From assembly GCA_943704425.1 (NCBI GenBank), contig CALSCP010002583.1, forward strand, positions 1 through 57,431: a DNA stretch of 57,431 nt, given 5' to 3'. The position numbers and the translations under genes were made by a program. Under the pieces are notes generated by a model. It was not told the DNA's origin, ran no database searches, and saw only the letters and a program-made list of their open reading frames with translations. Below, piece by piece: positions 8,444-50,145 of the stretch; positions within the stretch are counted from its first letter, which is position 1; each line of letters starts with the position of its first letter. This stretch comes from Ministeria vibrans ATCC 50519. Its lineage: Eukaryota > Protista > Filasterea.

Positions 8444-11400
8444 TTACACGGCATCCACTCCCAAGTCGGTTTCAGCAAGAATCTTCTGCATCTCATCACT
8501 GAGAGGGGCAAGAGAGGGGTCGTCGATAAAATGGCGAGTGGCCGAGGTTTCGGGGAAGGAGGAGGAGTCGTGGCTGGGGGAGGAGGAGGAGTCGTGACTG
8601 GGAGAGTAGCGGTGGGAAGCAGTGGAGGAAGTGGTGGACTCGTCGGAAGGGTGAGGAGGGCTTGAGTTTGCGGTGTGTGACGACTGTCTTTGACTGTTGC
8701 TGGTGCTCACGGTATCATTAAGACTGTCAGGTGAGGCACCTGCAAGCGGTATGGGTGGCGCGGTAAAGTTCGAGAGTGCCTTGACGGCCGCACTGCCCGA
8801 GCCCAACTTGTTTGAGTAGGTCAGATGCATAGAGTCGGACACCATGTCGTCGCGGCAGGCGGGTGGCGCGGTCGGTGAGAGCATCGATTGTGTTGTAGCA
8901 CGGGACTGTGAAGTGCCTGTGGCAGTCGCCTTACTCACCGCCGCTGCTGTGCGTGGCATTCCTGTCGTAGACGCCCGACTTGCAGGGACCGCCACACTCG
9001 CCTCGGTGGTGTCATAACGCATCAGCAACGCACACATCTCACTGGAGTCCCCGCCCTGCCGCCGGGCCACACTCAACGGCGTCTCATGCATCATATTCCC
9101 ATGTGACGGCACTGCACCCGCCTCCAAAAGCACTTGCGCCACTTCAACATTCAGTTCACGCGCAGCCAAATACAGACTCGTATCCCCCTAAAAAAAAGCA
9201 ATTTTAATTATGAATAATATAATAACAATAAAAATGTAACAAACAAAATGTGTACCTTGAGAGTGGGTCTGTCAATGTTTGCGTTCTCACGCACAAGCAT
9301 ACGCACAATATCAGTGGCCCCCACTGCACTGGCCCAATGCAACGCACTCCATCCACTCGCATCCACACTCCACACAAACGCACCAGCTGAAAAAAGATGC
9401 ACACAATCAATTGCGCTTTTTTGGTTTCCCTCTTTGTCTTTCACGCACCTGTCAAAAGTCGACTCACAACATCCGTCATGGCATATTTACACGCACACAT
9501 CAAAGCTATACAATGAAACGTTAAATTTTTCTTCGTTCTTTTTATTTTTCGTTTCTTACCTGTTCTTCCGACGGTATCGCGAACATTGAGAAGCTCACGG
9601 ACATTGTGAGTGTGATCAAGGCAGTAGAAGACGCAGTCGGTGGCGGCGACGGAGCAGGCGGCATGAACACAGCTGAGCTGGTCAGCGTCGACAAGATACA
9701 GGTCGGCGCCGGCCGCAGTTAGGAGCTGGAGGGCTGGGAGGGAGCCCATGAGACACGCAATGAGTGCTGGTGTTTGCTTGTTCGCATTGACATGGTTCAC
9801 TTGTGCGCCGTGTGCAATGAGTTCGACAAGGCATTCCGTGGCGTTTGCCTCAATGGCCACGTAGAGCGCCGTGTTGCCGGCCGCATCGCTCTCGTTGATG
9901 GCCGCAGCAGGACTCTGCACTGTCCCCACTGATGTACTTGACGACATGGCAATCGACAAAATCGCATTGGCAACTTCGTCGCTGGACGAGAGCTGCGCAA
10001 CAGATGCCCCACTGTGGAGAAGTTCTTCGAGACTGGACGCCGTAATGGAATGTTGTTGTTGTTGTTGTTGTTGTTGCCGTTGTTGCTGTTGTTGCTGTTG
10101 TTGTTGTTGCTGTTGTTGTACGTTGTCGTATTGTTGCTGTGCCGCGCTGATGAGTGATGTGAGCGACACTACGTCGTTGCGCATACAGGCAGTGCGAATG
10201 TCGATAGCAAGCGACGAGAGACCCACCAAAGGTGTCACCGAGTCCATCTCCATAACGTAGGTAGTGGAAGTCTCGCGACGCTTGATATCGTGCAGCTTCA
10301 TCGACTCGACACGACTGCGTTTGCTCCGCCTGCCCCCTGCTCCTCCTCCTCTTCCTCTTCCTCCTCCAAGTGCATTCGTGGCACCACTTGCGGTGGTGCT
10401 CTGGCCATCGTTCTCTTCCTCTTCATCGTCGCTGTCGCCCTTGCGCGTACGTTTGCGACGACGCGCGACCACAGCAGCCAATACCACGACGAGGGCGAGC
10501 ATCAGAACTACAATGACGGCAATGGCAACAATGGTGCTTGTGGACAGACTCGACGACGGACTCGCTCCAGTAGGCATGAGAGGCACGTTGGATGACTGAA
10601 CGCCAGCGGCGACCAGACCCACCTCGGCGTTGCCCAGCAGCTCCATGGGATTCACGAGCGCCGATGAAGACAGGTAGTTGGCACACAGCGTGGGATTGGT
10701 GTTGGCCCAAGGGCTGTTGGCGCGCGGTTGATACGAAACACGCGCTCGCCATGCCGAGACGTTGCGCGACGCCATCGCTTCGGTCCACCTGGTGGACATA
10801 CCGCTCACGGCAACGCTCGTCTGCATCGATGCGTTGTACCACGCAAACAGATCGTACACGTCAATGGACATGACTGACACCTGCGAGACGAGCAGACTCG
10901 TCAGGCGGTACTGCAGCGTAGACATCGTCTCGTTCATGTTAAATGTCGTCATGTCCGTTGGTAAAAAGTACACCTCGAGAACGCCAATGTAGCTTGCGAG
11001 CGGGATGTCATCACAATCGCCACCGTCAAAACCGCAGGCAACGTTGTTGCACTGAAGATCGCAGGTGTTGTCGCCCACATGAGTGAGGCAATACGACTCG
11101 GAAGGACACACCGGAATCTCGCGGAGATACTCAAAAGGACCGGGGCAGGAGAAGCCGTTGAAGCTGCACTCAGCCACATTACAGGCAAGCTCAGACGCTG
11201 CTGTGCAATTTCCCGCGTCAAACGCCTGGCGGCACATGTCGCGCTGCGGGCAGCTCGCCCAGTAGTCATTGGCTTCGATACAGTCCAACCCGTCCCAATT
11301 GCACGCGGCGGTGTTGCACTACAAGGGGAAACGACGGCGCGTGAGAACCCACGGGAGTGCGCCGTCTCCTTTTGGCGACCCACAGCCACTGCTGCGACTC

Positions 11401-11883
11401 CCCTGCACCCCGTGCGACCCCAGCACACACTGCTCCAGCCACTCAAGTCGGGCCACCACAAACCCCCTTCCCCCCCCTTCACATAACACAGTTGCACAGT
11501 CGGCAAAAGTTGCACAAACATCCAAAAAAAAAAAAAAAAAAAAAAAAGGACGAGCCCTTAACATACCATATTGTCGCACGTTCCATCGCCAAACATCATC
11601 CAGCAGGACTGAACGCTGCATGATGAGTCGTATTCAAGCGCCGTTTGAGAGCGGGCTGGCCGTCTGACAGAGCAGAAGAAGAAAAGAAGAAAAAAAGGGT
11701 TCAGAGAAGGGTGTTCGGATGAGAGGACAGGTCGGAGACTTCGGGAGGTCGGTCACGACACAATGGGCAGGTTTTGGGGGGGGGAGAGAGAGAATGGAAG
11801 TCGGAGAGAGTCGGAAAGAGCGAAAAAGACAAAGCTTACGACAAAGTCCAAACCAGAAGCCCCAGCACTGCCAAGCGCATCAT
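8444..11883 (-). CDS. Notch-like receptor without EGF repeats: SP-3xLNR-HD-TM-ANK-PEST (6 exons: 11883-11840, 11663-11567, 11318-9560, 9505-9449, 9386-9256, 9187-8444; 943 aa)
   Basis: Signal peptide MMRLAVLGLLVWTLS; LNRs (FGDGTCDNMCNTAACNWDGLDC; CNVAECSFNGFSC; GDNTCDLQCNNVACGFDGGDC); TM followed by RRRKR; ankyrins including GWSALHWASAV and TSLYLAARE; S/P-rich tail. Confidence 0.88.
10050..10118 (-). repeat. Coding (CAA/CAG)n polyglutamine tract in the Notch-like intracellular domain
   Basis: Direct read of the sequence. Confidence 0.9.
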
Positions 11884-12191
11884 TGTGGTAGCGGGGGAGA
11901 GGGGGTGGAAGCACTGATGATTGATGAAAATGCAACAATGTCCAGTGAGAAGAGATTATTTTGTATTTTTGTATTTTTGTAATTCAGTGTTATTTCAGTC
12001 ACTCTTCTGTCAAATTAAAAATCCGTGAAAAAATCCTTCGCGACATATGTAAACAAAGCACTCTATCATTTAGTTCACATCAACTAGTAATCATCAATAG
12101 ACAATAAGATCATTCGCTGGTTGGTTTTGGATGACAAACACATCGATCTTTCTTACTCTGAACAATGTATGTGAATGTGTTTACAACATTT

Positions 12192-13346
12192 CTATTGATC
12201 CAATTCCAAAATAGTGTTGGCCCACTGAAACTCACTAGCAAAGCCGACGGAATCCCTGAGATTGAGCACGCCATGGCCCCACAGGTCGGGGACAAACATC
12301 ACATCGCCACTCTGCTGCACACACTCATATGAGGCACGTCGGCGCGGCAGTCGCGCGCGGTCCCCCTTTGCCCACACACTCACGGGCTGTTGCGAGTAGA
12401 ATGCGTCGAGAGGCGCAAAGAGAAACCATCGCTTTCGGCCATACACAAGTGCATTCCAGGCACTACAACAAACACAAAGAAAAACATGAAATTGATAATA
12501 TTATTAAAAAAAATCAATTGTTTGTGTGTGTGTATGTGCGTAAGTCAGTCGTCACCTTGAGTGCCAGTGGATGGGAGAGCCGGAGCGAGGAGGCCCAAGG
12601 AAGAACTGAATGTTGCTGCGTGTGATGTTGGTGTCGAGGGGATCGAGAAAATCAGGTAGGAAATCCGCAAAGACGTCGGTTGCAAGGGAGGCATTTGCAG
12701 GGAGAGACTCAAAGACATAGTGGGGCACCGAGGCGGAGGAAGGTTCGCTGGAGCGCATGTAGTCAATGAAGGAGCGCAAAGAGGAGCGCTGAGCAGAGCG
12801 GTGAGGGGACGACGGAAAGGACTGTGCGTAGGGGATGGACACGCGGGAGACGGGCGTGTCTGCGTGCATTAGCAGCAGTGCATCTCGTGTCAGTTTGCGT
12901 TGCCATGACGATGACTGGGCTCCCTTGCGCACCAGTACCGGACGCGAGACGCTCAAATAGTCCCTCACAAAATCTGAATGAACCAGTTTTTAGTTCTATT
13001 AATTTGGTAAGAGTGTATACCTTTGGCAGTGAAGGAGTCCGCACTGACCACATCAATGTCACACTCATTGCGTCGAAGGTCCGCAGCAATGCTCTCATCA
13101 TCAACACCATCAACCCAACCAGAGACAGTACTCTTCTCAGACTCTGTTTCAGTTTCAGTCGACTGTGCGACGGATTCTAATGTTCTCTGTGTAAGACTGG
13201 GGCATTCGTGAGCGCCTTCGAGTCCAAAGGGCTCTGCGACAGCCTGTGCAGCCCACTCGCCCGCCGCACACGCACTCTCCCACGCTGTACGACCCCACTC
13301 GTCCACCACATCCTCATCTGCACGCCCATCCAGCAGTGTCTATCGT

Positions 13347-13408
<62 letters not shown>

Positions 13409-15138
13409 GTGAGTGAGAGAGACACACAGACACAGACACAGACACAGACAGAGACACAGACACAGACACAGACACAGACACAGACAGAGACAAAGACAGA
13501 GAGAGACAGAGAGGACAGAGAGAGAGGAGGGGGAAAGAAAAAAAGTGATAAAGAGAGAGAGAGAGAAACAAAGTGATAGAGAGAAATTGTGCTGTTTGCG
13601 TGAGTGTGTGAGGACTAACCTGCACTGCCAGTGACTGTCCCCTGATGGCCGCACAATGCAGTGGTGTCTGTCCAAAGTGATTCTGTATGTCCAATCCTCC
13701 CTCACCATCACCTATTACATCTTCCATTAGTGTGCAGTATGTGTGTGTCTGTGAGCGTGTACGGTCAATGAGTCTGGCGAGCAGGGTGGGATCGCCCAGT
13801 GCGGCAAACACGTGCAAGACCGAGTGATTGTACACATTGGCGACTGAGACTTGTGCTCCTTCGCTAATAAGCTTTGAGACTGTCTTTTGTTGCGTCAGAC
13901 ACCCCAAGAACATTCCTTCAGCGTCCTAAAATTGAAAATATACCAATGAAAACTTCGAGTAAGGGTATTTCTTACCACTCTGCTGATAAAGGAGGATTCT
14001 CCTGCTGTATAGAAATGGGACACTTTGACATGACAGTTCAATCGCAACAGCGTGTGAAAGTCGTCCGCACCGGCACGCAAGAACACCGAGCGCAACAAAT
14101 TGATCATTGTCGCCTCAAAGCCAAATGACGCACTCAACAGCGAAATGTGACGCATATACGACGCAATGGAATCAGACTTGCTCCGCTCACGCGCCTCCTT
14201 CTCCTCTTCCTCTTCCTCTGCGTCGTTCTCGTCGTCCCGTTCATACAACTGCCGCGCAAGCGAGTGCATTCCGTGCACAAACGACTCGGTCAGCTGTCCC
14301 ACTCCAGCGGCAAACTGCCCAAACTCACTGTGCAGTGCGCCGTCGCTCGGCTGCAGTGCCAGCAGAAGCTCATAGCCCCGATACGCTTCATTATACACCT
14401 ACCAAAATGAAAGCACAAGAAAAAACCCCCCATAAAACAATTTCGTGAGCAACATCAATCGCTGTTTTCTCTGCTGTGTGTTTTTACCTGCTGTGCAAGT
14501 TTGATGTTGACAAAGAGTCGCACAAGCGAGGCCGCCTCCTCGCCGTGTTCCTTGGCAAATGCAACGCCCTTTTCGCGATTCTCGCCCAAGACACGGTGGT
14601 GCAGATGCTTGTGTAGATCAAACCAGTCGGAGAAGCCCGCGGCGCGAATGTAGAGCGAGAGAATGGACAGCGCGCGATCGTGTTCGCCGGCGCCCATCAA
14701 CAGCGCACTTGTTCGTCCGCAATACGACGCGTCGGCCGGCCGCAGCTGCACCGCCTTCTCCAGCATGTCAAGGGTCTCGGTCTGCTTCCCTTGCATCGAC
14801 AGAACCACGCCGGTATTCCAGTGTGCGTCCGCATGTGTCGGTTCAATCGCAATGCACTATCAGTGTGAGAGTGTGTGTGTCATTTGATAAGCAAGTTCAA
14901 ACCCCAAAAAAACACCACGTACGCTTGCCAACGATTCCAGGGCCTTTTCCAGGTTCTTTTCATGCACGGCCACCTGGGCGACGGCAATAAGCTCGTCGCA
15001 CAGCCCTGACAAAGACACACAATCAATACTAATGGAGCCCCTTTTCCTTCCACGTCTACCTTCCGCCTTGACCTCGTCAAGCTCAAGCGACGCCACCGAT
15101 CGACTCAATATACAAATTAGAACAGCCGCCAGCAGCAT
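12192..15138 (-). CDS. Signal peptide + TPR + ankyrin + C-terminal JmjC (JMJD8-like cupin) multi-exon protein
   Basis: MLLAAVLICILSRSVAS; TPR (IEPTHADAHWNTGVVL...LEKAVQLRP); ANK (GQTPLHCAAIRG); JmjC QFFLGPPRSGSPIHWH...YGRKRWFLF...QQSGDVMFVPDLWGHGVLNL. Confidence 0.82.
13347..13530. repeat. (GA)n and (GACACA)n intronic microsatellites
   Basis: Direct read of the sequence. Confidence 0.9.
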
Positions 15139-37902: not shown

Positions 37903-38190
37903 TAATAAATTTAAAATCTCTCAAACTGTTCCTGTTCGTCAGATTAGGATGCGTGTCTATTTGCACTTGTCTCTACAGACACAATTTTAAAGCGTCGTTT
38001 TCCGAGGCCCTTGCCTACTGGCTAGTCATCCCAAGTTTTCAAGTAATCCCAACGGCAACAAGGTGTGTTAGGCCGTTGATTTGGTTGCAGTGCACTTCAG
38101 ATTTTGAGTTCGACTGGAGTTTGACTTTTTTAGTTCGACTCATTTTCAGAACTGTTTCATTTCACAATTATTTTTGCGCAATCCCTCGCA

Positions 38191-40888
38191 ATGTCGTTTT
38201 TTGTGCCCACAGAAGTACTTCGACTTGAGACTAGACTAGAACAGTTGAAACAGGTGAGTTGCAAAGATACAAAATTGTGCGTGTCAATTGTCAACTCAAC
38301 ACACACACATTGCACGCTTGCCTGTATGCGTAGGCCGTGGTCGTGGCCGAGGATGTTCTCAGGAGGCTCGAACACAAGACTAAGAAGCACATTGTGAAAG
38401 AAGGTTTGAGCTGTCCAACAATAATTATCGTATTTTCCTCTCGACCCAAACTTAAAATAAAAAAAATTCCCCACACACAGCAACGCCATCGGGAAATCGC
38501 ACAGAGCCATGGACTGCAGATGACATTAGTGATGCGGAACTTGAGCATGGGTCTTCGGGACGCGTTGCAGGTGAGTTTGGAGCGTGTTTTTGGTTTTGGT
38601 GGTGGATGATGGTTTCTCTGTGTTTTTGTTTACAGTGGCGTTGCGCGCCTTGGCGAAGGACACGGGGCGCGCGACTGCTGTGGGAGTCACGTTGGAGGAT
38701 GTTGCTATTGCTCTTGAGTGTGCGGGGCGCGAGGAGCTGGCGTTTGAGAAGGAGGCATGGCGCGTCGTGTGCGCCCCACTAGTGCGTCTCAGGGAAGGCA
38801 TGCAGGAGCACAAGGCTGGCCTGAAGACGCTCGAAAAGCTGAAGCGGGTGGTTGACGCGAGGAAGAAGGAGCTTGCGCATGTGAACAACAGCACGAAGAG
38901 TGATCCGACGGAGCGCAGCTATCATGGCGAACTCGTTTTGCAAGCGTGTCGACCGTATCGCACGCAGCTCGAAGAGTGTTGCAAAGACATTGTGCGTGTC
39001 CTCGAGCTCTACGAAGACACCATCATGACCACGTTGCAGACGTTTCTCAAGTCGCAACATCGTCAGTTGCTTGGGTCGCGCAAGGGCGTCGAGGAGGTGC
39101 TTCGTCGAGTGATTATGCGCGGCGCCCAAGAGTCATTCGAGTCGGTCACGGGCGATTCGCGCGCTCGCGTCGAGGGACTTATGCGTGTGGTGGTCACCCA
39201 AGAGCACGCGAGCGACTCGCCACACGACTTACAACTACAGCAGGGTCAAACGGTGCTGGTGACGAACCAACGGGCGACGGGCATCGATGAGGGCACTGCC
39301 TACTACGAGGGAGTGGTTGCGGCCACACTTGAATCGGGCCGGTTCCCTGCGTCGTGTGTGGCGCCGTCGCTGACCACCGATGACGGTCTTCTCGTGCCCG
39401 TCGACCCATACCACCAGCACCAGCACCAGCAACAAGGGCCACTCCAGCAAGGCATGTTGTCACCCGTTGACTGCTCTCGTGCGCGCGCCAGCTCTGGAAC
39501 GAGCAGTCTCGATGGAAGTGGTCGTCTTTCGCGTCTCCTGGACACCACTGTGCTCGAGACGGAAGAAGAAGAGTACGCTGAGCAACTGAGAAATTGTGTT
39601 GCGCTGGCACTGCGTCTCATCAACTCGGCGCACCTCACAGCGCGACACACCTCGACAGCAATACCCTCGGAGTGTGGCAATACCCTCGGAGTGTGTCTCG
39701 CCAGTGGGCATGGGCGAGCGAGAGGCACGCGTGGCCTTTGTCAATGCAGCTGTGTATGTCATTGAGCGCGTGCGGCAGTGGGGGCGCGTGAGTATGCATG
39801 GCGTGGGCAACGTAGCCAGTTGCTACAGTGAGCTGGAGCAGAGCGTGGGTACCTTTGGGTCGTCAGGTGCCTTGTACGTGCAAGAGTGTGGTGCAGAGAG
39901 CGGAGCGGCACTCGATGAGATCACTGTGGCCTGTCGGGGCTGTCTCTATAGTATTCGTGCCCTTTCGTATGCCTGTCAGAATGGCACTGTGGCGCGTGGT
40001 GCGGTCCAGCGCGAGATCAAGAACACATCGGAGTACTTTGGTGATCTGCTGGACATCCTCGAGAAGATGCACAATGACCAAAGTGGCGGCGGGGCAGTAC
40101 AGTCAGAACAACAACAACAACCACCACCACCATCTGTGACAACCGTGGGTGCGCCTCCTCCCTCTTCTCAGCCGCCCCCTTACTCCTTGTTCAAGTCAAA
40201 TCCAACTCCAAGTGCAACAGCAGCGACTCCGATCGGTGAGATGGGTCCCTCTGCCGTCTATGATCGCGTTCAACCACACCCTTCCTCTGCTGCTGCTGCT
40301 GCTGTTGCCATGATCATCCCTGCTACTGCTACCACTACTACCACCGCTGGTGGCTTACCTGCTCAGTTCACCCCATCACTTGAAGACGTGACTCGGACCA
40401 AGCAACGCATGCAGATTGAGCGTCAACGCGCCTACGAAGAGCAAAAGCGTCTCGAAGAAGAGCAGAACCGTCAAAAGGAGCTGGCACGCCTGCATCAACA
40501 ACAACAGCAACAACAGAACAGCGGACTGCAGCTCTTCCCCACTTTCAACACTGACTACGCCCCAATCACTCGCCCAAACAACCCTGATCCTATTCCAGTC
40601 GTACCTACCCAACCAATGCCTACTGATGAGTTCTACCGCGACGATACACAGTCCATCTACGATCCTGTTGCCACTGACGACTCCACTTACGACTACCCTC
40701 TCTCACACACACACATTCCACCCACTCACACCAGTGACATTGTGCTTCCCTCTCCACCCGTCGACTCTCCAATCACTCCCAACCTTCCTTCTCTTCCCTC
40801 CGACTCCTTTCCCTCTCCTTCTTCTTCCTTGCCCACAATTGACGATGAGAGTCTCGAAATGCGCTTTCAGCGACTCAAAAATAAATAG
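38191..40888 (+). CDS. BAR-like coiled coil + SH3 + helical bundle + Pro/Tyr-rich tail adaptor; frameshifted by a 19-bp duplication at 39658-39695
   Basis: Short 5' exons; BAR-like helices; SH3-like (HASDSPHDLQLQQGQTVLV...YYEG...SGRFPASCV); ends DDESLEMRFQRLKNK*. Confidence 0.65.
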
Positions 40889-40926
40889 AAATACAAACAA
40901 TATTAAAAAAAATTTATTGATACAGC

Positions 40927-43782
40927 TCATCTCCAAACACGCGCCAGAACTGCAGCAGTCACAAACACCATAAAAGATGAGTACGCCGCGACGCGTCGCG
41001 TAGACAAAACATTAAAATTGGGAGGGACAGGCCGTGATTGTGCACCGCTATTAATACTGTGGCTGTGGGCCTCTTCTGCTCCCCCTCTCGTGCCCTCGAG
41101 GAGAAGGTTGGGCTCCAACTCGGGCGGTCGTTCTTCTCTCCCTGGCTCAAGTGCGTTTTGGGGTACTTCTGTTGTGGCAACGACGTGTAGGTCGAGGGCG
41201 GTCATGGAGTGCGGGCGAGAGTCGCTGAGGAGGCACTGGAAGAGAATGAGCGCGAGTCGAAGCGAGAGAGCATTGATCGTCGTCGCGTCGGTGCGAGAAG
41301 CATTTGCAGCGCCAGGTGACTGTGCTTGACAATCCGGAGTGTTCTCGTATGTCCCAACAATGGCCCGCTCAAGCCGTCCTGTCCGCCTGCATATATTTTC
41401 GCAACGGCAGCCATAGGTTGTCGCGCCTACAATATTGAGGTCGTCACCCAAACGCGCCGTACAAATTTCAACCGCGCTCTTGTACGACTCGGCCGCAAAC
41501 GTATCGTCGTCCAGGGCCATAAATACGTTCCCTAGTTCCGTCAATGCCTCAGCCGCAAGAAGGGAGTTCTGGTCGGCAATGCAGCGGCACGCACACGCTG
41601 CAGCAAGCAAAGCAGCCGAAAGATTCTTCAGGGTGCGCCACATACGACTGAGTCGGATGCCAAGCCATACCACAGCCTCGTCCTCCCCATCCATCGACAC
41701 AATGTCTCCGGCGCACAGAGTCACCATCAGCCGCATTCCTTCTGTGCCCACGCGTCGACTCCACTCCTCATCACGCCTGACCTTCTCCGCATCGTCAATC
41801 TGCCCTTGCAACACCACAGCCGCCAACTCAACGGCACACCGCATCTCCTCATCGTTCTCAAACGCACTCGCAAGGCACTCGTCCCGTCTCGACTGCGGCA
41901 AAAGAACGGCTACACGAGACAACGTGTGCACCACTTTGTAGTGATGGAGCAAACCCAATGCAATCTCAACGACACCTTCGCCCTTGGCTCGCTTCGCCTG
42001 TTCCCCGTCGCCCGTCACCAGCAGACGTACCACGTCCATGTGCACCTCAAAGCCAGCGAACAGACCCAGTAGTCCAACAAGCTTCTTCTTCACCGTCGCG
42101 TCTCCTCGAGGGTCCTCCAGGGCTCCACGCACACACATCTGCGCTGAACTGGGTGCCGCCTGCGATACCATTTTTGTCAGCGAGATAGCTTGCTGGTCCA
42201 CCTGCGCCACCATTGACTTCAACTCCTCTTCTGGGCCGCCCGCCAAAAGACTTCGCAGATACTCGACAGCCTCGCCGCCCGTAAATGGCGCCACTTTCAA
42301 GGGAGCCTTCGTCTCGAGCAGATCCGTGACTTCCTGCTCACACGTTGAAAGCATCTTTCCCGCCGACGAAAAGAGTGCATGCATTTTTTCCGCTATCTCA
42401 TCACAGCCGTCAATGACCATCAACCAGCGGCGTTCGCACAGCAACCATTTCTCCAGTGCATCCACACGCGTACCAGCACCCACAACGTCCCCAACCGCAA
42501 GGGAGAGGTACTGCACGACCGCATCAAACGACTCGGAAAGTGACTGTGAATTCGTGCCGTCGAGCCAGAAGACGTATTGGTACAGGTGTGCGTTGCGTCT
42601 TGCATACTCAACGGCCAACGCAGTCTTCAGCATGGTGCCCGACGCAGATAAAACCACGATCGCTTCCTTTTCGAGACGCTCCTTGATATTAGCCAGGTCT
42701 TCCTCACGCTCCAGAGTTGACATGGGCAACGCAGGGACCATAGCAAGCTTGTCAAACTCGGTGTAGTCGTGGTTCACCACCACAAACTCGCCCGTGTTCT
42801 CGTGCTCGCGCCATGGCAGTCGACCCAGTATGGATGTCATGCGAAACGCGACAAAGTCATTGCGAACGTTTTCGTCAGTGCTTTCGCCCCCATCAACGGC
42901 CAGCGCGTCGGACATGAGCTCATCGACTTTGTCCGCCAAGCATCCAATGGTCGCCCAGAGCGCCGGTCCCTCTTTTGCGCGTACAAAGGCGCTACCGTTC
43001 CAGGCGGGGCGCAGCCAGGCGTTTCGCAACGCCGTGTGCATTATCGTGCCCGTACAGTGGCAATATCCGAAGAAGGCGCGGGGCACGGACGCCAAGCAGT
43101 GGCAAGACCCGTGACTCTGGTGCGCTCTCAGCTGTGGTATGCTAGTGCCTCTGGCCCGCAAAGATGCACACTGTTTGTCTACCGCACCACCCGAGTGGCA
43201 GGTGTCGAGTATCAGCAAGATTCGTCCCCAGCGGTCAGACGTGTCGACCTGCAAGTCATCATGCAGCTGGTCGACGGTGTAGGCTCCCTCGTAGTACAAA
43301 TCCTCATCGACAGTACCGTCGTCGTTGATCACGGTCCGCTGGTAGCAGCGAGTGTCGGCAAAGGCAGCACCGTACGACCCGTTGTCGTTGAGAAGGCCGT
43401 GCGAGCAGACGTACACGACAAGTTCATCGCGTTCCGGTGCGCATTGCGGGTGCATGAGAGCAAGGGCGTCAATCGCCTCGAGGATGTTCGCATGCCCCGA
43501 AGGCTCCTGTCGCCACTGGAGGCTGCCAGTGTCGACAGCGGCGACTGCAGCGTCGGCATACATTTGCTCATCCGCATCGCTGTCAGGAAAGGCAGACTCT
43601 GACAGCGCCATGGGCGTGTCGGCGAGCACGAGAACCTTGTAGTCGTTGTGGACAAGGTCAACTGCCATGTTGCGCGCGGAGGGGCCGACGCCTTGCAGCG
43701 GGTCGAGGGAAAGTTGTTGAGGGTCGAATAGTCCCCGGCTGATGACGAGAGCGTACTTTCTCTCACCGTACTTGCCATGCAT
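40927..43782 (-). CDS. Intronless caspase-like (clan CD) + NB-ARC-like NTPase + TPR protein (NLR/STAND-like), 951 aa
   Basis: KYALVIS, LVVYVCSHG (His), ILLILDTCHSG (Cys); REEDLANIKERL...IVVLSASGTMLKTALAVEYARR...YQYVFWLDG; RWLMVIDGCD; TPR AEALTELGNVF...AAESYKSAVEI. Confidence 0.82.
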   Translation of the reverse strand: MHGKYGERKYALVISRGLFDPQQLSLDPLQGVGPSARNMAVDLVHNDYKVLVLADTPMALSESAFPDSDADEQMYADAAVAAVDTGSLQWRQEPSGHANILEAIDALALMHPQCAPERDELVVYVCSHGLLNDNGSYGAAFADTRCYQRTVINDDGTVDEDLYYEGAYTVDQLHDDLQVDTSDRWGRILLILDTCHSGGAVDKQCASLRARGTSIPQLRAHQSHGSCHCLASVPRAFFGYCHCTGTIMHTALRNAWLRPAWNGSAFVRAKEGPALWATIGCLADKVDELMSDALAVDGGESTDENVRNDFVAFRMTSILGRLPWREHENTGEFVVVNHDYTEFDKLAMVPALPMSTLEREEDLANIKERLEKEAIVVLSASGTMLKTALAVEYARRNAHLYQYVFWLDGTNSQSLSESFDAVVQYLSLAVGDVVGAGTRVDALEKWLLCERRWLMVIDGCDEIAEKMHALFSSAGKMLSTCEQEVTDLLETKAPLKVAPFTGGEAVEYLRSLLAGGPEEELKSMVAQVDQQAISLTKMVSQAAPSSAQMCVRGALEDPRGDATVKKKLVGLLGLFAGFEVHMDVVRLLVTGDGEQAKRAKGEGVVEIALGLLHHYKVVHTLSRVAVLLPQSRRDECLASAFENDEEMRCAVELAAVVLQGQIDDAEKVRRDEEWSRRVGTEGMRLMVTLCAGDIVSMDGEDEAVVWLGIRLSRMWRTLKNLSAALLAAACACRCIADQNSLLAAEALTELGNVFMALDDDTFAAESYKSAVEICTARLGDDLNIVGATTYGCRCENICRRTGRLERAIVGTYENTPDCQAQSPGAANASRTDATTINALSLRLALILFQCLLSDSRPHSMTALDLHVVATTEVPQNALEPGREERPPELEPNLLLEGTRGGAEEAHSHSINSGAQSRPVPPNFNVLSTRRVAAYSSFMVFVTAAVLARVWR

Positions 43783-44000
43783 GGGGACACAAGAAAGATT
43801 GTAAATCTATAGGCTGTGAGCGAGAGAGGCAGGCGAAAGAAAGGCTGTTTGAATAAATAATAATAATTTTGATAAAATTGCATTTTAATCGACAGAACGT
43901 CAAAAAACAAAATCACTCATTGACTCATTCTTTACTCTTCAATCGTAAGCTGCCACTCGTGACCAATTTGAACGTGCTTTTTTCTTCACTCACTGCTTCC

Positions 44001-46067
44001 ATGGAGGACGAGGTACGTTGAAGGAAGGGCAGTTTTGATGCGTTGCTGAGTGTGTTTGTCTTTCGCAGACCAACTCAACTTCGACCTTTGCTCTGGATGT
44101 CCTCGTGGGGTCATTTGCTCCTCGACCAACAATCCAAGCAAGGCTGCCTCTTCGACTACCGGCCGTCGCGTTGCGCTTTCTCGATTTTCCGTCACTCATT
44201 GTCAGAAGTGTCACCGTTGAGCACTCCAATCGTCTTCGCGCCAAATTCGATGCACTGACGCCGCGCGATGGCCTTTCTCGAGCCGACGAGGAGTCCCTTT
44301 TGTTTACTGAGCTGCTCGAAGCCCTCCAGGCTCCGTCGGGTGAGCCAGGATCAATTAGTTTCAATCGAGGCAAATCAACCGTTTTCAAAATGTCACTGAG
44401 CGCTCTTCGCACCCGTCTGCGCTCCATTCCCCTCTACCTCATGATCACCGACGTATGGGACGAGCAGAGGCCCGCTGTGCTTGCCAGTAGCTCCGTCAAC
44501 ATTGCCGTCTTGGCCACACGAGTGCATCAGTAACACATGTTTCTCACGCACAGAAATGAATTGTTTTGATAAGATTCTTTGCATATATAGGAGCACTCCT
44601 GGAAGCGCCGTGGAGGAAGGACGTGTCCCGGTACTTTCTATGATGGGCGAGGAGGTGGGCACTTTGACGATTCGCGTGAGACTTAGTTCGTTGGGCACTC
44701 TGTCGGCGCTCACGATCACGCCAATGTCTCACCAAGGCATTGGTGTGTCCCCATCGTCACGACGACAATCGCTGCGCTCGGGGAAGCCAGAGACAAATGC
44801 TCAAAGAGAGGACGCTTATCTGATGGCTGCTGTCGTGAACAACCGACCGGTCGCCGAGCAACTCGACAGCGAGCAGTCCGAAGAGAGCACCTTCCGGCCG
44901 CCCACCCTTTACTACGAAGGCACGAACGACACCCAACCCACACCGAAACTGTACCGATCACAAGAGGCAACGCCCGTGGCTTTGGTACAAGCACAAAAAG
45001 ACGAAGAAGTGGAGGAGAACACGAAGAATGCGGGGCGGGGTGGAAGGATCTCGCTGAGGGACCAAGCTACGTCGCCCGTCACTTTCACACCCGAAAAAAA
45101 ATCGCCATCGCAGCCATGCTTTTCCCCTTTCCTCTTCTTCCGCTCCACAACGACACTCACCCCATTGCTTGATTCCATCCGAAGCGAACTCGAAGTAGTG
45201 CGCTCACGCGAGTATGCACAGGCACTTCTCCAGCGAGAAGAAGAAGCTTTGGACCAATCACCGCGACACAGTACCCACACGCCCCTCATGCGAACTTCCA
45301 CATACACTACCCACCACGATTTGACCCCGGCGGAATCCACTGCGCCCCCATCTCCTCAAGCAGACCTTGCATTAGGACAGCACATTCACACTATCGACTC
45401 CCTCATGGGCTCCTCTGCCAGTGTCTCGCAAACGTCCATGGTGTCGTTCTTTGCCTCTGCCACAGCTCCATTGCTCTGTAATCAGTCACACTACTCACAC
45501 TCACATCTTGAAGGCGAAGGAGAAAACTACTCGCAATCAGACTTTGAGGACAAAAGAGAGAGAAACGTGAAGGGGGAGGAGGAGGATACACGAACCATTG
45601 TCTCACCATCACGGCCTGGGTCTCGACTTCTCTCGCACGTCCAGATGTCACTCGACGACTCATTTGCACAACGAGAGGTTCACTCGCTTAGTCCCACAGC
45701 ACTCTCGCAAGACTCGCTCAACGACAGTCTTGAGAGTGGCCTGGGGATGCCTCGTCCCTCGGCTGCCATGGTTGCGGTGGCTCGGTCGGTACTCGAAGAA
45801 GAAGTAGAAGAAGAAGACGAGTATGAGTATAAGGAGGACTTTGAAGTAAACTCGGAGGAAGAAGAAGAACAAGATGATAATGATGATGATGATGATAAGA
45901 TGTTTGAAGAGGAGTTTGAATATGAGAGTGATGATGATGACGATATTGAGCACGAACTGAGTATGAGCATTGCCGAGTCGATTCGATCTCACTTCAGTGG
46001 AGGAAGTATGTCGGAGGAAGGGAGAGACAACATTGAGGAGCTATTCAGCAGTGACGATGCTTTTTGA
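44001..46067 (+). CDS. MAP10: Microtubule-associated protein 10-like (N-terminal C2-like domain, acidic tail), at least 3 exons
   Basis: FALDVLV, PAVALRFLDFPSLIV, FNRGKSTVF, LRSIPLYLMI, GEEVGTLTIRVRLSSLG. Confidence 0.72.
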
Positions 46068-46248
46068 GATTGTAAATTTGTAATCAATCATGTATTATAT
46101 ATACAGAGAGTAGTAAAATAATTAGAAATAAACAATAATCATCTCCACTAAAGTTAAAGTATAAAAATAAAATACATAATTATAAAGTTTGCGTGATTGC
46201 CCTTTTTCTTTTTTTTCTTTTTTTGCATCAAGAGAACACAAAAAATTA

Positions 46249-47372
46249 TTAACGCCTGAGGCGAATCACAACAGACAGAGCAACAAGAACAAGAGATCCA
46301 GCAATTAAAAAGCGGGGAAGAGACAGGAGGAGGGTTTGGGGGCGGAGATTATTGGTAAGAGAATCGCATTTCTTCTTCGTTTCGAGGGTGTTTGGGTGGT
46401 TGTCGCCGAGAGAGTGACGGAAAATGGAGAGGGCTCGCTGGAAGTGTGCAAGAGCGCGAGGGAGTTGTTGCTGCGTGAGAAACACAAAAGCCATGCTGTT
46501 CAATGTATTGCCTGTGGATGGGTGGTCGGAACCAAGAGACTTTTCACGGATCGATAACGCACGCTCATAGTACTCAAGAGCACGACTGTAGTCTCCTTGT
46601 GCATAGAACACACCAGCCATGTTGCTCAATGTGGTGCCGGTCGATGGGTCGTCGGGACTCAGACTTTCGAATAGATAGAGCACGCTCATAGTACTCAAGA
46701 GCACGACTGTAGTCTCCTTGTAACTGGGACATGTGTGCCATGTTGTTCAGTGTGTCGCCTGTGGATGGGTGATCGGAACCAAAAGACATCTGATAAATGG
46801 TCAGAGCACGCTCATAGTACTCAAGAGCACGACTGTAGTCTCCTTGTGCCTCGGACACAATGGCCATGTTATTCAATGTCTCACCTAGCAAAGTGGAAGA
46901 GGTCGATGACAAGGATGTTTAGACTTTATAATTGTACGGATGATTGCCAGTGGCCCCGCCAGATCTGGCAAGCCTGGTGCTGACGGTAAAACGATTTGTT
47001 GAATGAAGTGAGACGCAAGGAACTTTGTGGGTCGCCGAATTCTGAAATTAGAGCATCTCTACAGGAGAAGTCAACGATGTAGGGAGGTAGGCGAGAGAAG
47101 ATGGCACTGCGGAAATTGGAAATGATACACACCATGAGTGATGAGGCTACCGCGGTTGTGCCACTGCCATGACGGTACTCTTGCAAACCTGACGCGATGT
47201 AAAATGACTTAGGCCCAAAGTGGTCCGCCCGGCGTTTTGCATGTGCGGCAAAAGACGGGTCATCTCCTCACTCGACTGTTGTCCCAGTCATTGAGTGTTG
47301 TAGATCACACAAAACAACGTGGAAGCCGGACTCGGACGCAGTCTCCTTGTGCGTAGAACAAAAAGACCGATA
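46249..47372 (-). pseudogene. Decayed kinesin-light-chain-type (42-aa) TPR array with a C-terminal hydrophobic anchor
   Basis: Three near-identical ~126-bp units encoding TLNNMA...QGDYSRALEYYERAL.I...GSDHPST; frameshift near 46660; further degenerate unit (FYAQGDC) near 47340-47370. Confidence 0.7.
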
Positions 47373-47395
47373 CGGTATGATACTATTTTACACAT

Positions 47396-50145
47396 TTACT
47401 TGAATTGAATCCGAAGCAACAGCTTGGCGCCGCGGATAATCTTACAGGAGCGGTCGTTGAGGCGCACCCTACGAATGCCCTGGCGCACACACTGCACCGG
47501 CACAAACGCATGGCCAATGGTGTCGTCGGGATTTCCTGCACCGTCCTTGTCCAGCACAACAAACTTGAGCTGCGCCGGTCCGTACACACTGGACGGCGGA
47601 AGAGAGAAGACAAATGTTTCGTTCCACGTCACGCAGAAGCCGCTGAAAAAACACAGTTTATAGAAAGTAACCAGGGGGGGGGTGTTCTTCCTTACTTGTC
47701 ATCGACGTGCGATGTTTTGAGCCACTTTTGTGTTTTCCCGCCCAAATCGAGCGTGACCTTACAGTACGGGTCGGGAATGTCACGTTTGCTGACGCGCGGC
47801 AGTCGCACACCCGCGATGACTGTCACGATGAGCTCCGAGACGGAATCGGGACTGAACACGGCGGAGTTGAGAGAGGCAGAGAGAGCATCGTCAAAGTCGT
47901 CGTTGACCGACAGCTCGTGCATCAAATCACTGGCACTGGTTCGATCGAGCGAGGTGTTCATCATCAGTGCAGCCGCACTGACACTGCTGGTATTGAGACT
48001 GCCGCTTGTCGTGCGTCGTGTTCGCGTGCGCAGGTGCGCTGGTTTCAAGACGTATCCACTGTATCCATTCTCGCGGAACAGTGCTTGATTGGTGAACATT
48101 TGCTCCGTTGCTAAAACACACCAAAAAAAAATTTTAGTGTGTGCAGTGCAGGTAGAAGAAAAGAAGTTTAACATAATCCGAATTTTTACCTTGTTGGAAG
48201 TTCATGGCGACAATCTGACAGCCGGAGCGAAAGGCGGTGATGGGATTGACATTGGAGGAGAGAATGCGAAGACCGTGCGGATAAACGCGGGTCATATGAC
48301 GGGCATTGTAGTCAATGACGGTGCGCTCGGGAAAGGACGAGAGCATTCCTTCGCTAATGTTGCTCATGACGGCCGCACTGGGCTCGAGTGGGTCCATTTC
48401 TGAGCCGCGCGCAGTAATGTCAAGATGGATCAGACGACTCAGCTGCTCATGGACGCGTTTGGGATTGAGTGTCTGGCTCTCACGCACCGTCAGCATCTCT
48501 TCCTGTTCATCCGCCTCATTGTCACTTCCTCCTCCACCAGCGCCCGTGGTGGTGGATAGTGACGTCGACCGAGCCATTGATGTCTTCTCGCTCACCCGTG
48601 GTGTTCGCGCCCGCTCCTTGTGCTTCGTCGACGCCTGCGGATTCACATACTTGTACGCCTGCAGCAGCACTTTGCGTCGCAGTTCATTGGGCGACGGCAA
48701 AATATCCTGTCCTTCAAAGTGCTCCACAGGCGCAAGCATGTCCCCAAGCACTTCCCGCAAATCAGCCGCGATCTGCTCCTGCTGTCGTTGTCCACAGTGG
48801 ATCTCCAGCGACAGAATGGCTACGATCAGTGCAAATATGAGTGAGTGAGTGACACTCGAGATTTGTGTGTGTCTCTTTGCCTGGAAGGTCTGATTTCTCA
48901 AAGGCGTGCTGTGCAATGGCTTCAAGAACACTGCGAAAGCGCAGTCGAGGCCGAGTCATTGTGTATCCATGAAACACCTTTCAAAAGAGAAACGAACAAC
49001 CATAAGCAACAACAGATACAGATGAGTGTCGGCTTGATTGGTACTTCGGGAATTCCGTCGTCTCCGTCCCAACAGTCAAGCTCGACACACCGACCGCCCT
49101 GCTTGAAACACGCTACGTACATCTGAGAGAAAAATACACACACATATATATACAAGTTTGACGGATGAGTATGATTTTTCGAAGATTTTTCGTGGCCAAT
49201 CTGGAACAGTCGTACGTCGATTGATTGCGAGTCGAGCACCTGCCGCCCACTCAGATAGGTGTTGTGGCTGCTGCTGATCCAGTAGTTGGACAGGGGAAGA
49301 CTCATGTCCTGGTAAAGTTCGTCGCAGACCGGATCAAAGATGTCGTTTGAGTCGGAGAGGAGGTACTCAGTGAAGGTCTCGAGAGATGTGAGAGGTGGAG
49401 GCACTGGTTTGGCGGGTATTCTATGCTGTGCGTGCGAGCCCTTTTGGTTAGCGAGAAACTCCGCCAGGGGGTCCTCGAGAGCGGCGTCTTCCTCGGCGGC
49501 GCCCGGCAGGCCACACAGAGCGTCGTAGAGGGCGGCCACGGGCGGAACGTGCTCGAGCTCGCGCAAGAGCACTCGAAAGGTGTCCAGGTCGACAAAGGCA
49601 CTGCCATAGCCCGATTCGGACGTCATGGGACGCGCCGTGGGCTGCTGCCGACGTACCACCTCGCGTACCACAGATTTGCTTGTGCTCACATTGAAGTTTC
49701 GTCGAAGGAATTTGACAATCTGAAAAAAAAAATATCAATCATGAATGCTATTGAGTGGACTCATTGTAGTGGATGTGCGGTAGAGAGAAAAAAAAGGGGG
49801 GGGGGATCGTAGAGTGTCCCATGACTTGTCGAGGAGAGAAAGGCAGCAAAGGTTCGCTGAGTTGGGAGAAGCATTTGGGGCGTTGTCCCTGGCAACCGAT
49901 CGTGGTCAAAATACCTGTTCGACACTGCGTGGACCGCGCTCAAAGAGTTGCTGAATAAGTTGCTCGTCGTCTACAACGAGGTCTGTCACTTCGTTGGCGA
50001 CAGTGCTCTTCAAATCTTTGACGCCGAGTGTTTTCAACGTTGGATGATTTAACTGGGGTGCCGAGTCGCGGCGTTGCAGAGGCGCTCCGGTGTTTTTGTA
50101 CGTGTCGACTTCGCCAATCATTTGGCGCGACGTACCGCAGCCCAT
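47396..50145 (-). CDS. Phosphoinositide-specific phospholipase C (X, Y and C2 domains; N-terminal MGC acylation motif), multi-exon
   Basis: YQDMSLPLSNYWISSSHNTYL, GGRCVELDCWDG, FHGYT, ILSLEIHC, LPSPNELRRKVL, TRVYPHGLRILSSN, GCQIVAMNFQ, NGYSGYVLKP, C2 with PDPY and WNETF. Confidence 0.95.

What the first reader, a model, noticed from the sequence alone, without database searches (positions are those of the whole stretch)
40927..43782. Intronless caspase-NB-ARC-TPR receptor (NLR-like, putative immune or cell-death effector)
Seen: a 951-aa single ORF with an intact His-Gly/Cys dyad (VCSHG, LDTCHSG), an NB-ARC-like domain and TPRs. Established: effector-STAND-TPR architectures are the NLR-like receptors of fungi and bacteria. 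The Walker A is degenerate (SASGTMLKT instead of GxGGxGKT) and only about 2 TPRs are clear. It may therefore be a nucleotide-independent helper protease or a decaying copy. The absence of introns over 2.8 kb suggests HGT or retroposition (inference).
Basis: partly seen in the sequence, partly recalled or inferred. Interest (0 to 1): 0.75.

Follow-up and report, generated by a model that had tools for sequence, protein, structure and literature searches.

The report
Caspase receptor with worn nucleotide switch
A marine single-celled eukaryote transcribes an unspliced gene that joins a caspase-fold protease with intact catalytic residues to an immune-receptor (NB-ARC/TPR) body whose nucleotide switch has eroded, so it is likely an NLR-type defence protease that is triggered without its own ATP switch.

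Summary
The gene is real. The 951-codon ORF (40927-43782, minus) lies unspliced in an RNA-derived contig. Residues ~6-324 take the caspase-hemoglobinase fold (Z 12-13) with His128/Cys195. Residues 349-530 are an FxsT-type NB-ARC module (NCBIfam E 1.8e-17). Only one TPR is clear. Whole-gene decay is unlikely: the frame is open, codon use is host-like and the dyad is kept. 'Intronless implies HGT' is not supported: the neighbouring BAR-SH3 gene has a 2.26-kb exon, and no close bacterial or viral relative was found. The protease defines a small unnamed family (8 relatives). One relative, P0010, is the mirror image: dyad lost, P-loop intact. A weak C-terminal membrane anchor is possible. Protease-STAND-repeat fusions are known in bacteria and fungi, and degenerate P-loops have precedents. 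Verdict: a new variant of a known kind; the immune role is inferred, not shown.

The parts
40927..43782 (-). Single-exon gene, 951 aa: caspase-fold protease + NB-ARC-derived module + helical/TPR region + tail
   Evidence: unspliced in RNA-derived contig over 40927-43718
42811..43767 (-). Caspase-hemoglobinase (clan CD) protease domain, residues ~6-324
   Evidence: NCBIfam caspase_w_EACC1 E 1.4e-5; ESM Atlas Peptidase_C14 0.92
43399..43401 (-). Predicted catalytic His128 (SHG)
   Evidence: His kept in 5 of 6 family relatives that span it
43198..43200 (-). Predicted catalytic Cys195 (DTCHSG)
   Evidence: Cys kept in 6 of 7 family relatives that span it
42193..42738 (-). NB-ARC (AP-ATPase/FxsT-type STAND) nucleotide-binding domain, residues 349-530
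   Evidence: NCBIfam FxSxx_TPR E 1.8e-17; tblastn to bacterial NB-ARC-TPR, best E 2e-5
42622..42645 (-). Degenerate Walker A, ASGTMLKT (residues 380-387): both inner glycines replaced (T383, L385), Lys386 and Thr387 kept
   Evidence: the two glycines are present in 12 of 12 bacterial relatives and in P0010
42400..42423 (-). Walker B, LMVIDGCD (454-461), Asp458 kept
42337..42339 (-). Glu482 in the column of the sensor-1 (RNBS-B) Arg
   Evidence: Arg in 12 of 12 bacterial relatives and in P0010
41878..42192 (-). Shortened HD1/winged-helix region (residues ~531-635); GLPL motif lost, MHD His ambiguous
   Evidence: the two alignments differ at the MHD column
41449..41553 (-). The one detectable TPR (residues 744-778)
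   Evidence: Pfam TPR_1 E 0.009, below cut-off
40993..41415 (-). Poorly conserved tail (residues ~790-930), no family match, lower codon bias
   Evidence: no TPR hidden in the other minus frames
40936..40992 (-). Hydrophobic segment 931-949 followed by Trp-Arg-stop: possible weak tail anchor

Best explanation
This is a transcribed, retained NLR-like gene whose caspase-fold domain keeps its His/Cys dyad and is likely an active cysteine protease, while its NB-ARC module has lost several nucleotide-switch motifs and likely serves as a scaffold or autoinhibitory clamp rather than an ATP/ADP switch. Proposed working, all inferred: the NB-ARC/winged-helix/TPR body holds the protease inactive. Binding of a ligand, or of a partner receptor with a working switch, clusters or releases the protease domains, which then cut an unknown substrate in a defence or cell-death response, possibly at a membrane through the C-terminal hydrophobic segment. 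Shown: ORF, transcription without splicing, fold, dyad, motif losses, a small family. Inferred: catalytic activity, loss of nucleotide cycling, mode of activation, immune role, membrane anchoring.
For: Fold and dyad. STAND identity. Motif losses against 12 bacterial NB-ARC proteins: both P-loop Gly 12/12, sensor-1 Arg 12/12, GLPL Pro 11/12 kept there and lost here. Retention under selection: open frame, CAI 0.70 and GC3 0.65 inside the neighbours' range of 0.67-0.77 and 0.57-0.73, RNA pieces in 4 of 4 runs laid, from 4 studies. [quoted passage not shown]
Against: Lys386, Thr387, Asp458 and the pre-P-loop Arg are kept, so nucleotide binding may persist. No confident model of the NB-ARC part exists (the single-sequence model had pLDDT 38). 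The 12 bacterial comparators were picked as hits to this protein. No substrate, gasdermin-like gene or partner NLR was found among the window ORFs scanned, and no whole genome was available. The sensor part is reduced to about one TPR. The RNA contigs are unstranded and three of the four runs are RNA only by guess (they do show GT..AG joints). No dN/dS could be computed.
Confidence: 0.55

Rival explanations
1. A self-contained receptor with a non-canonical but working nucleotide switch: it still binds ADP/ATP through Lys386, Thr387 and Asp458, oligomerises on ligand binding and activates its protease by proximity, like an apoptosome in one chain.
For: Lys, Thr and the Walker B Asp are kept in register with no indel in the P-loop. 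The NBD still scores E 1.8e-17. Non-canonical P-loops recur in fungal NLRs (PMC4986451, passage).
Against: Leu at the Gly before the Lys, Thr at the other P-loop Gly, Glu for the sensor-1 Arg and loss of GLPL all fall on nucleotide-contacting motifs that are 11-12 of 12 conserved in relatives.
Confidence: 0.22
2. A domesticated, non-immune protease: the caspase-fold domain does a housekeeping or developmental cleavage and the receptor body is a vestige kept only as a spacer, localiser or stabiliser.
For: Erosion of both the switch and the sensor with the protease intact. Steady presence in RNA runs. Single copy at 85% identity in the RNA runs laid, with no pile-up of paralogue contigs over the ORF, unlike the TPR gene at 46249. 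Housekeeping neighbours.
Against: The family is fast-evolving (27-58% identity to the query), sparse, and includes a pseudo-protease member with an intact P-loop (P0010), which is typical of conflict systems (inference).
Confidence: 0.15
3. A decaying copy on its way to a pseudogene.
For: Eroded P-loop and TPR array. The last 150 residues have weaker codon bias (CAI 0.65, GC3 0.54) and no family match. Some relatives look broken (P0008 lacks part of the core).
Against: The frame stays open in 12 of 1000 neutral simulations at 5% divergence and 0 of 1000 at 10%, ignoring indels. The motif losses need several multi-base changes. The dyad is intact and the gene is transcribed. The single variant seen in the ORF is synonymous (n=1, weak).
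Confidence: 0.05
4. A recent horizontal transfer from a bacterium, or a retrocopy, which explains the lack of introns.
For: No intron in 2.8 kb, the longest stop-free frame of the window. The nearest named relatives of both modules are bacterial families. Two bacterial-looking caspases share a similar insert (P0011, P0012).
Against: The neighbouring BAR-SH3 gene has an RNA-verified 2256-nt exon. Five other Pfam-supported frames run 443-727 codons without a stop. Codon use is host-like. Bacterial matches are only 21-35% identical. No relative was found in GTDB genomes, IMG/VR, phage records or JGI metagenomes.
Confidence: 0.03

Closest known systems
[quoted passage not shown]
   Same: A C14-like protease fused in one chain to a STAND NTPase and a repeat sensor.
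   Different: This one is eukaryotic, of a divergent unnamed protease subfamily, with an eroded switch, a minimal TPR sensor and a possible tail anchor.
FxsT-type bacterial NB-ARC-TPR proteins (NCBIfam NF040586)
   Same: Same NB-ARC subtype (E 1.8e-17) followed by winged helix and TPR_12-like repeat.
   Different: 63 bits against a cut-off of 300. They keep GxGGxGK[TS], the sensor-1 Arg and GLPL and carry long TPR arrays. None of the four scanned with Pfam has a caspase domain.
Fungal NLRs with CHAT or S8 protease effectors that activate gasdermins (PMC12881547, PMC9815663)
   Same: Eukaryotic protease-STAND-repeat receptors.
   Different: The protease here matches Peptidase_C14/EACC1-type caspases, not CHAT or S8. 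No gasdermin-like gene was found in the window ORFs scanned, and the host is not shown to be a fungus.
Protist and algal NB-ARC-TPR proteins (Ectocarpus, PMC3341825; Acanthamoeba, PMC4053784)
   Same: NB-ARC-TPR candidate receptors in non-animal, non-plant eukaryotes.
   Different: The word 'caspase' does not occur in the main text of either paper. Ectocarpus receptors diversify by exon shuffling of repeats, while this gene has one exon and about one TPR.
STANDs with degenerate P-loops (KpAvs8, PMC13581612; non-canonical fungal and plant NLR P-loops, PMC4986451); plant paired NLRs and caspase-8/cFLIP (recalled)
   Same: A receptor kept although its NTPase motifs are eroded; division of labour between active and inactive paralogues.
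   Different: Pairing is not shown here; the mirror-image relative P0010 comes from an unnamed contig of unknown species.

Membership tests
Caspase-hemoglobinase fold (clan CD) proteases | alpha/beta caspase fold | tested here: met
   Model pTM 0.66; Foldseek and VIA hits to legumain, caspases, MALT1, metacaspases, GSU0716 at Z 12-13. Residues 197-243 and 257-341 have pLDDT under 50.
Caspase-hemoglobinase fold (clan CD) proteases | His after strand 3 (HG) and Cys after strand 4 | tested here: met
   His128-Gly129 and Cys195 at the ends of strands 119-132 and 185-194
Caspase-hemoglobinase fold (clan CD) proteases | Proteolytic activity | not testable with these tools
   needs an assay
Peptidase C14 (Pfam PF00656) | Score at or above the gathering cut-off | tested here: inconclusive
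   The query has no Pfam hit. Relatives P0002, P0003 score just under the cut-off and P0005 passes it (24.2 against 21.4 bits). ESM Atlas 0.92 with 146 shared features.
True caspases (C14A) | QACxG motif and Asp-specific S1 Arg (motif recalled) | tested here: not met
   The motif is DTCHSG, of the metacaspase/orthocaspase type (recalled)
Metacaspase / paracaspase / legumain subfamilies | Closest structural and sequence affinity to one subfamily | tested here: inconclusive
   Z-scores are tied within about 1 across legumain, caspase-6, GSU0716, MALT1, metacaspase 4; identities 9-20%
STAND NTPases, NB-ARC/AP-ATPase clade | NBD-HD1-WHD module homologous to NB-ARC | tested here: met
   HD1 is shortened
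STAND NTPases, NB-ARC/AP-ATPase clade | Canonical Walker A GxxGxGK[TS] | tested here: not met
   ASGTMLKT; inner glycines present in 12 of 12 bacterial relatives
STAND NTPases, NB-ARC/AP-ATPase clade | Walker B hhhhD | tested here: met
   LMVID, Asp458
STAND NTPases, NB-ARC/AP-ATPase clade | Sensor-1 Arg and GLPL/GxP motif | tested here: not met
   Glu482 for Arg; QQAIS for xLPLA
STAND NTPases, NB-ARC/AP-ATPase clade | MHD histidine | tested here: inconclusive
   His aligned only if the wing is deleted; Leu in the other alignment
NLR-like receptors (effector-STAND-repeats) | Tripartite order effector, STAND, superstructure-forming repeats | tested here: met
   Order confirmed, but the repeat part is only about one detectable TPR within a helical region
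NLR-like receptors (effector-STAND-repeats) | Ligand-induced oligomerisation and a defence or death output | not testable with these tools
   needs experiments
FxsT (NF040586) | Score of 300 bits or more and FxSxx-COOH operon context | tested here: not met
   63 bits; eukaryotic context

The most novel reading that the evidence does not exclude
A protist has a split-labour NLR pair built from one caspase-STAND family: an executor with a live protease and a dead switch (this gene, possibly tail-anchored to a membrane) and a sensor or regulator with a dead protease and a live P-loop (the P0010 type), which assemble together to fire the protease. This would be an independent invention of the paired-NLR and caspase-8/cFLIP logic in a microbial eukaryote.
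Probability: 0.12. Interest if true: 0.78.

Novelty: new variant of a known kind. Interest (0 to 1): 0.45.

Why it matters
Immunity and regulated death in free-living protists are barely mapped. A single-chain caspase-fold protease receptor in such an organism is a direct candidate effector, testable with one catalytic substitution. It belongs to a protease subfamily that Pfam misses, so similar genes are probably unannotated elsewhere. It also offers a natural test of whether a STAND receptor can work without its nucleotide switch. The general design is already known from bacteria and fungi, which limits the surprise.

Tried and rejected
Word-indexed protein searches found nothing (whole protein, near lengths; residues 1-340, shorter; alignment, only 1188-3390 aa); the family appeared only in the exhaustive phmmer search. 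DNA-pattern searches of JGI metagenomes, GTDB genomes and IMG/VR with two alignments found no relative (these need conserved words, so absence is weak evidence). No match in phage records; P0010 had no plasmid match. The single-sequence full-length model was unusable (pLDDT 38) and its fold search meaningless. phmmer against PDB gave only a designed TPR and spurious mesothelin hits; profile searches gave only caspase-2 and metacaspase-4 at E 0.3-1.5. The homodimer prediction for the protease domain gave no verdict and is not used. The tree of 9 protease domains is unresolved beyond separating P0011/P0012. A frameshifted TPR array in the tail was sought and not found. P0009 (insect repeat protein) was dropped as a spurious hit before counting the family. 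The E 3e-32 from my own NB-ARC profile is circular and is not used as evidence. No whole genome is held, so paralogues, partners and gasdermin-like substrates could not be counted. Strain polymorphism in the DNA runs was not obtained, so selection is argued only indirectly. The host lineage was not determined (one search returned no names).
Full report
Observation. The ORF is at 40927-43782 on the minus strand, 951 residues, and the quoted motifs lie at residues 125-129, 192-198 and 379-387. The window is gene-dense eukaryotic DNA: bZIP, PHD/SPOC, CAF1A, PI31, BAR-SH3, phospholipase C and rhomboid genes, with 65-80-nt GT..AG introns. Public runs that hold the stretch include algae metagenomes, and a marine polyA library holds pieces of it. 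The lineage was not determined and no whole genome is held.

Transcription and introns. Four runs were laid on 38000-47500. In X7, one 5271-nt contig skips three GT..AG introns upstream and then runs from 38633 to 43718 with 2 other letters, 1 gap and no joint. It thus covers all but the first 64 nt of the ORF unspliced, and also confirms the odd P-loop letters. Coverage falls to about zero over 44023-44656. Exact-match pieces inside the ORF also occur in X17 (2), X19 (1) and X20 (3; on record as polyA RNA-seq), each from a different study. Limits: contigs show no strand or level, the X7 contig merges this gene with its convergent neighbour, and X7, X17 and X19 are RNA by guess, though their splice joints support it.

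Protease domain. Pfam does not recognise it. The ESM Atlas puts residues 1-345 next to Peptidase_C14 clusters at 0.92, NCBIfam gives caspase_w_EACC1 at E 1.4e-5 and PADLOC a caspase model at E 0.003. An exhaustive phmmer search of 1.84 billion representatives gave 11 hits at E<=1e-3: 8 family members (P0002-P0008, P0010; unnamed singletons from ENA or Logan on 1.6-5.1 kb contigs), 2 bacterial-looking caspases (P0011, P0012; taxon not given) and 1 spurious repeat protein (P0009). A model from an 11-row alignment reached pTM 0.66, confident over about 5-196. Foldseek's best hits are GSU0716, MALT1, metacaspases and caspases. VIA-align gives Z 12.0-13.1 for legumain, GPI transamidase, caspases, GSU0716, MALT1 and metacaspases, all tied. 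So the fold is settled and the subfamily is not. His128 and Cys195 follow the expected strands. Of the 6 relatives that span both sites, 5 keep His and Cys and P0010 keeps neither; P0004 spans and keeps only the Cys; P0006 spans neither. The DTCHSG motif is of the metacaspase/orthocaspase type rather than QACxG (recalled).

STAND module. Residues 358-527 match NCBIfam FxSxx_TPR at E 1.8e-17. The ESM Atlas scores 340-800 at 0.98 against NB-ARC/TPR_12 clusters of bacteria and ascomycetes. tblastn finds 24 plasmid records at 21-34% identity among the 20 listed. I aligned 12 of these 24 with the query and P0010. The P-loop maps without indels: the glycines at positions 4 and 6 are present in 12 of 12 and in P0010, but are Thr383 and Leu385 here, each two base changes from any Gly codon. 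The sensor-1 Arg (12 of 12, and P0010) is Glu482. The GLPL proline (11 of 12) is lost in both the query and P0010. The MHD His (10 of 12, and P0010) is ambiguous in the query. Lys386, Thr387, Walker B Asp458 and the pre-P-loop Arg are kept.

Sensor and tail. One TPR is detectable at 744-778, below Pfam's cut-off; a profile of 29 bacterial repeats finds only that unit and nothing in the other minus frames. Residues 801-951 match no family and have weaker codon bias. The protein ends in its most hydrophobic 19-mer (931-949, mean 1.75) plus Trp-Arg; 229 of 20000 whole-protein shuffles and 62 of 20000 tail shuffles reach that value. The test was chosen after seeing the segment and the hydrophobicity is marginal, so a tail anchor is only possible. 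The TPR gene ending at 46249 has a clearer one (2.27). C-terminal anchors are reported for Ectocarpus ROCO receptors (PMC3341825, passage).

Decay. Under neutral substitution without indels, the frame stays open in 359, 149, 12 and 0 of 1000 runs at 1, 2, 5 and 10% divergence. The motif losses need several multi-base changes, and the nearest relatives are 42-58% identical, so the switch eroded while the frame and the dyad were kept. CAI is 0.70 and GC3 0.65, inside the range of 9 neighbouring coding stretches (0.67-0.77 and 0.57-0.73; the references were used to build the index, and the reverse-complement control scores 0.69, so the test is weak). The one ORF variant in X7 is synonymous. No dN/dS was possible.

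Origin. Lack of introns is not informative here. The adjacent BAR-SH3 gene has an RNA-verified 2256-nt exon (38633-40888) and five other Pfam-supported frames are stop-free for 443-727 codons, although the 951-codon ORF is the longest. No relative was found in GTDB genomes, IMG/VR, JGI metagenomes or phage records. The nearest named families of both modules are bacterial, so an old transfer is possible; the tree cannot decide.

The mirror relative. P0010 aligns across the protease-NBD junction (E 2e-17, 25% over 447 columns) and is the only 1 of 8 relatives with an NB domain in its predicted product; the others are cut short or run into unrelated tails, so their architecture cannot be read. 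It has lost His and Cys but keeps GPCGTGKT, the sensor-1 Arg and the MHD His. Whether it lives in the same species is unknown. It shows that this family loses either half, which suggests but does not show pairing.

What is known. Passages read: PMC3501461 (metacaspase-NACHT in 15 and metacaspase-NB-ARC in 2 prokaryotic sequences); PMC13581612 (caspase-fused bacterial Apaf-1 variants; degenerate motifs in KpAvs8); PMC12881547 and PMC9815663 (fungal NLRs with CHAT or S8 effectors near gasdermins); PMC4986451 (non-canonical P-loops; effector table without C14); PMC3341825 and PMC4053784 (NB-ARC-TPR in Ectocarpus and Acanthamoeba); PMC5613156. Paired plant NLR papers were seen as a search listing only. 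Nine searches showed no paper on a C14-like caspase-NB-ARC-TPR fusion in a protist, but the library lacks most subscription papers and no supplementary tables were read; those of PMC13581612 and PMC4986451 may list such proteins.

Verdict. A real, expressed, NLR-like caspase-fold receptor of an unnamed small family, with a probably inactive switch and a reduced sensor. New variant of a known kind; interest 0.45.

Noticed in passing
window 38584-40888 (+), base 39676: The BAR-SH3 gene appears as two overlapping ORFs (38584-39765 and 39596-40888). Runs X7 and X17 both leave out one base at 39676, so it is probably one gene and the window has a 1-base insertion (assembly error or allele). Its stop lies 38 nt from the stop of the caspase gene, convergent.
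   Followed up: partly
window 46249-46918 (-): TPR_12-type repeat gene in two frames (break near 46640), ending in a clear hydrophobic segment plus basic residues (tail anchor). No NB domain was seen upstream. Many similar contigs pile on it in RNA runs (summed depth near 20000 in X7), so this organism has a very large TPR repeat family, a possible pool of separate sensors.
   Followed up: partly
window 45353-46141: A spliced RNA contig with a minus-strand intron (45541-45607, CT..AC) overlaps the 3' part of the plus-strand ORF 44481-46067 in X7 and X19: an antisense transcript, a long 3' UTR of the TPR gene, or a separate small gene.
   Followed up: no
window 44105-46067 (+): Head-to-head neighbour with a MAP10_N (C2-like) domain (E 2.3e-7), starting about 200-300 nt from the caspase gene's start; a shared promoter is possible.
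   Followed up: no
window 9441-14398 (-): ORFs with an LNR (Notch) domain and ankyrin repeats in a protist-like genome.
   Followed up: no
P0011, P0012: Two bacterial-looking caspases share with the query a similar acidic insert between the catalytic His and Cys; they are the nearest non-family relatives and a lead for the family's origin.
   Followed up: partly
L002:2395-4752: Prosthecochloris plasmid protein annotated as FxsT is a TIR_2-NB-ARC-TPR protein next to a restriction endonuclease gene, a candidate anti-phage NLR.
   Followed up: no
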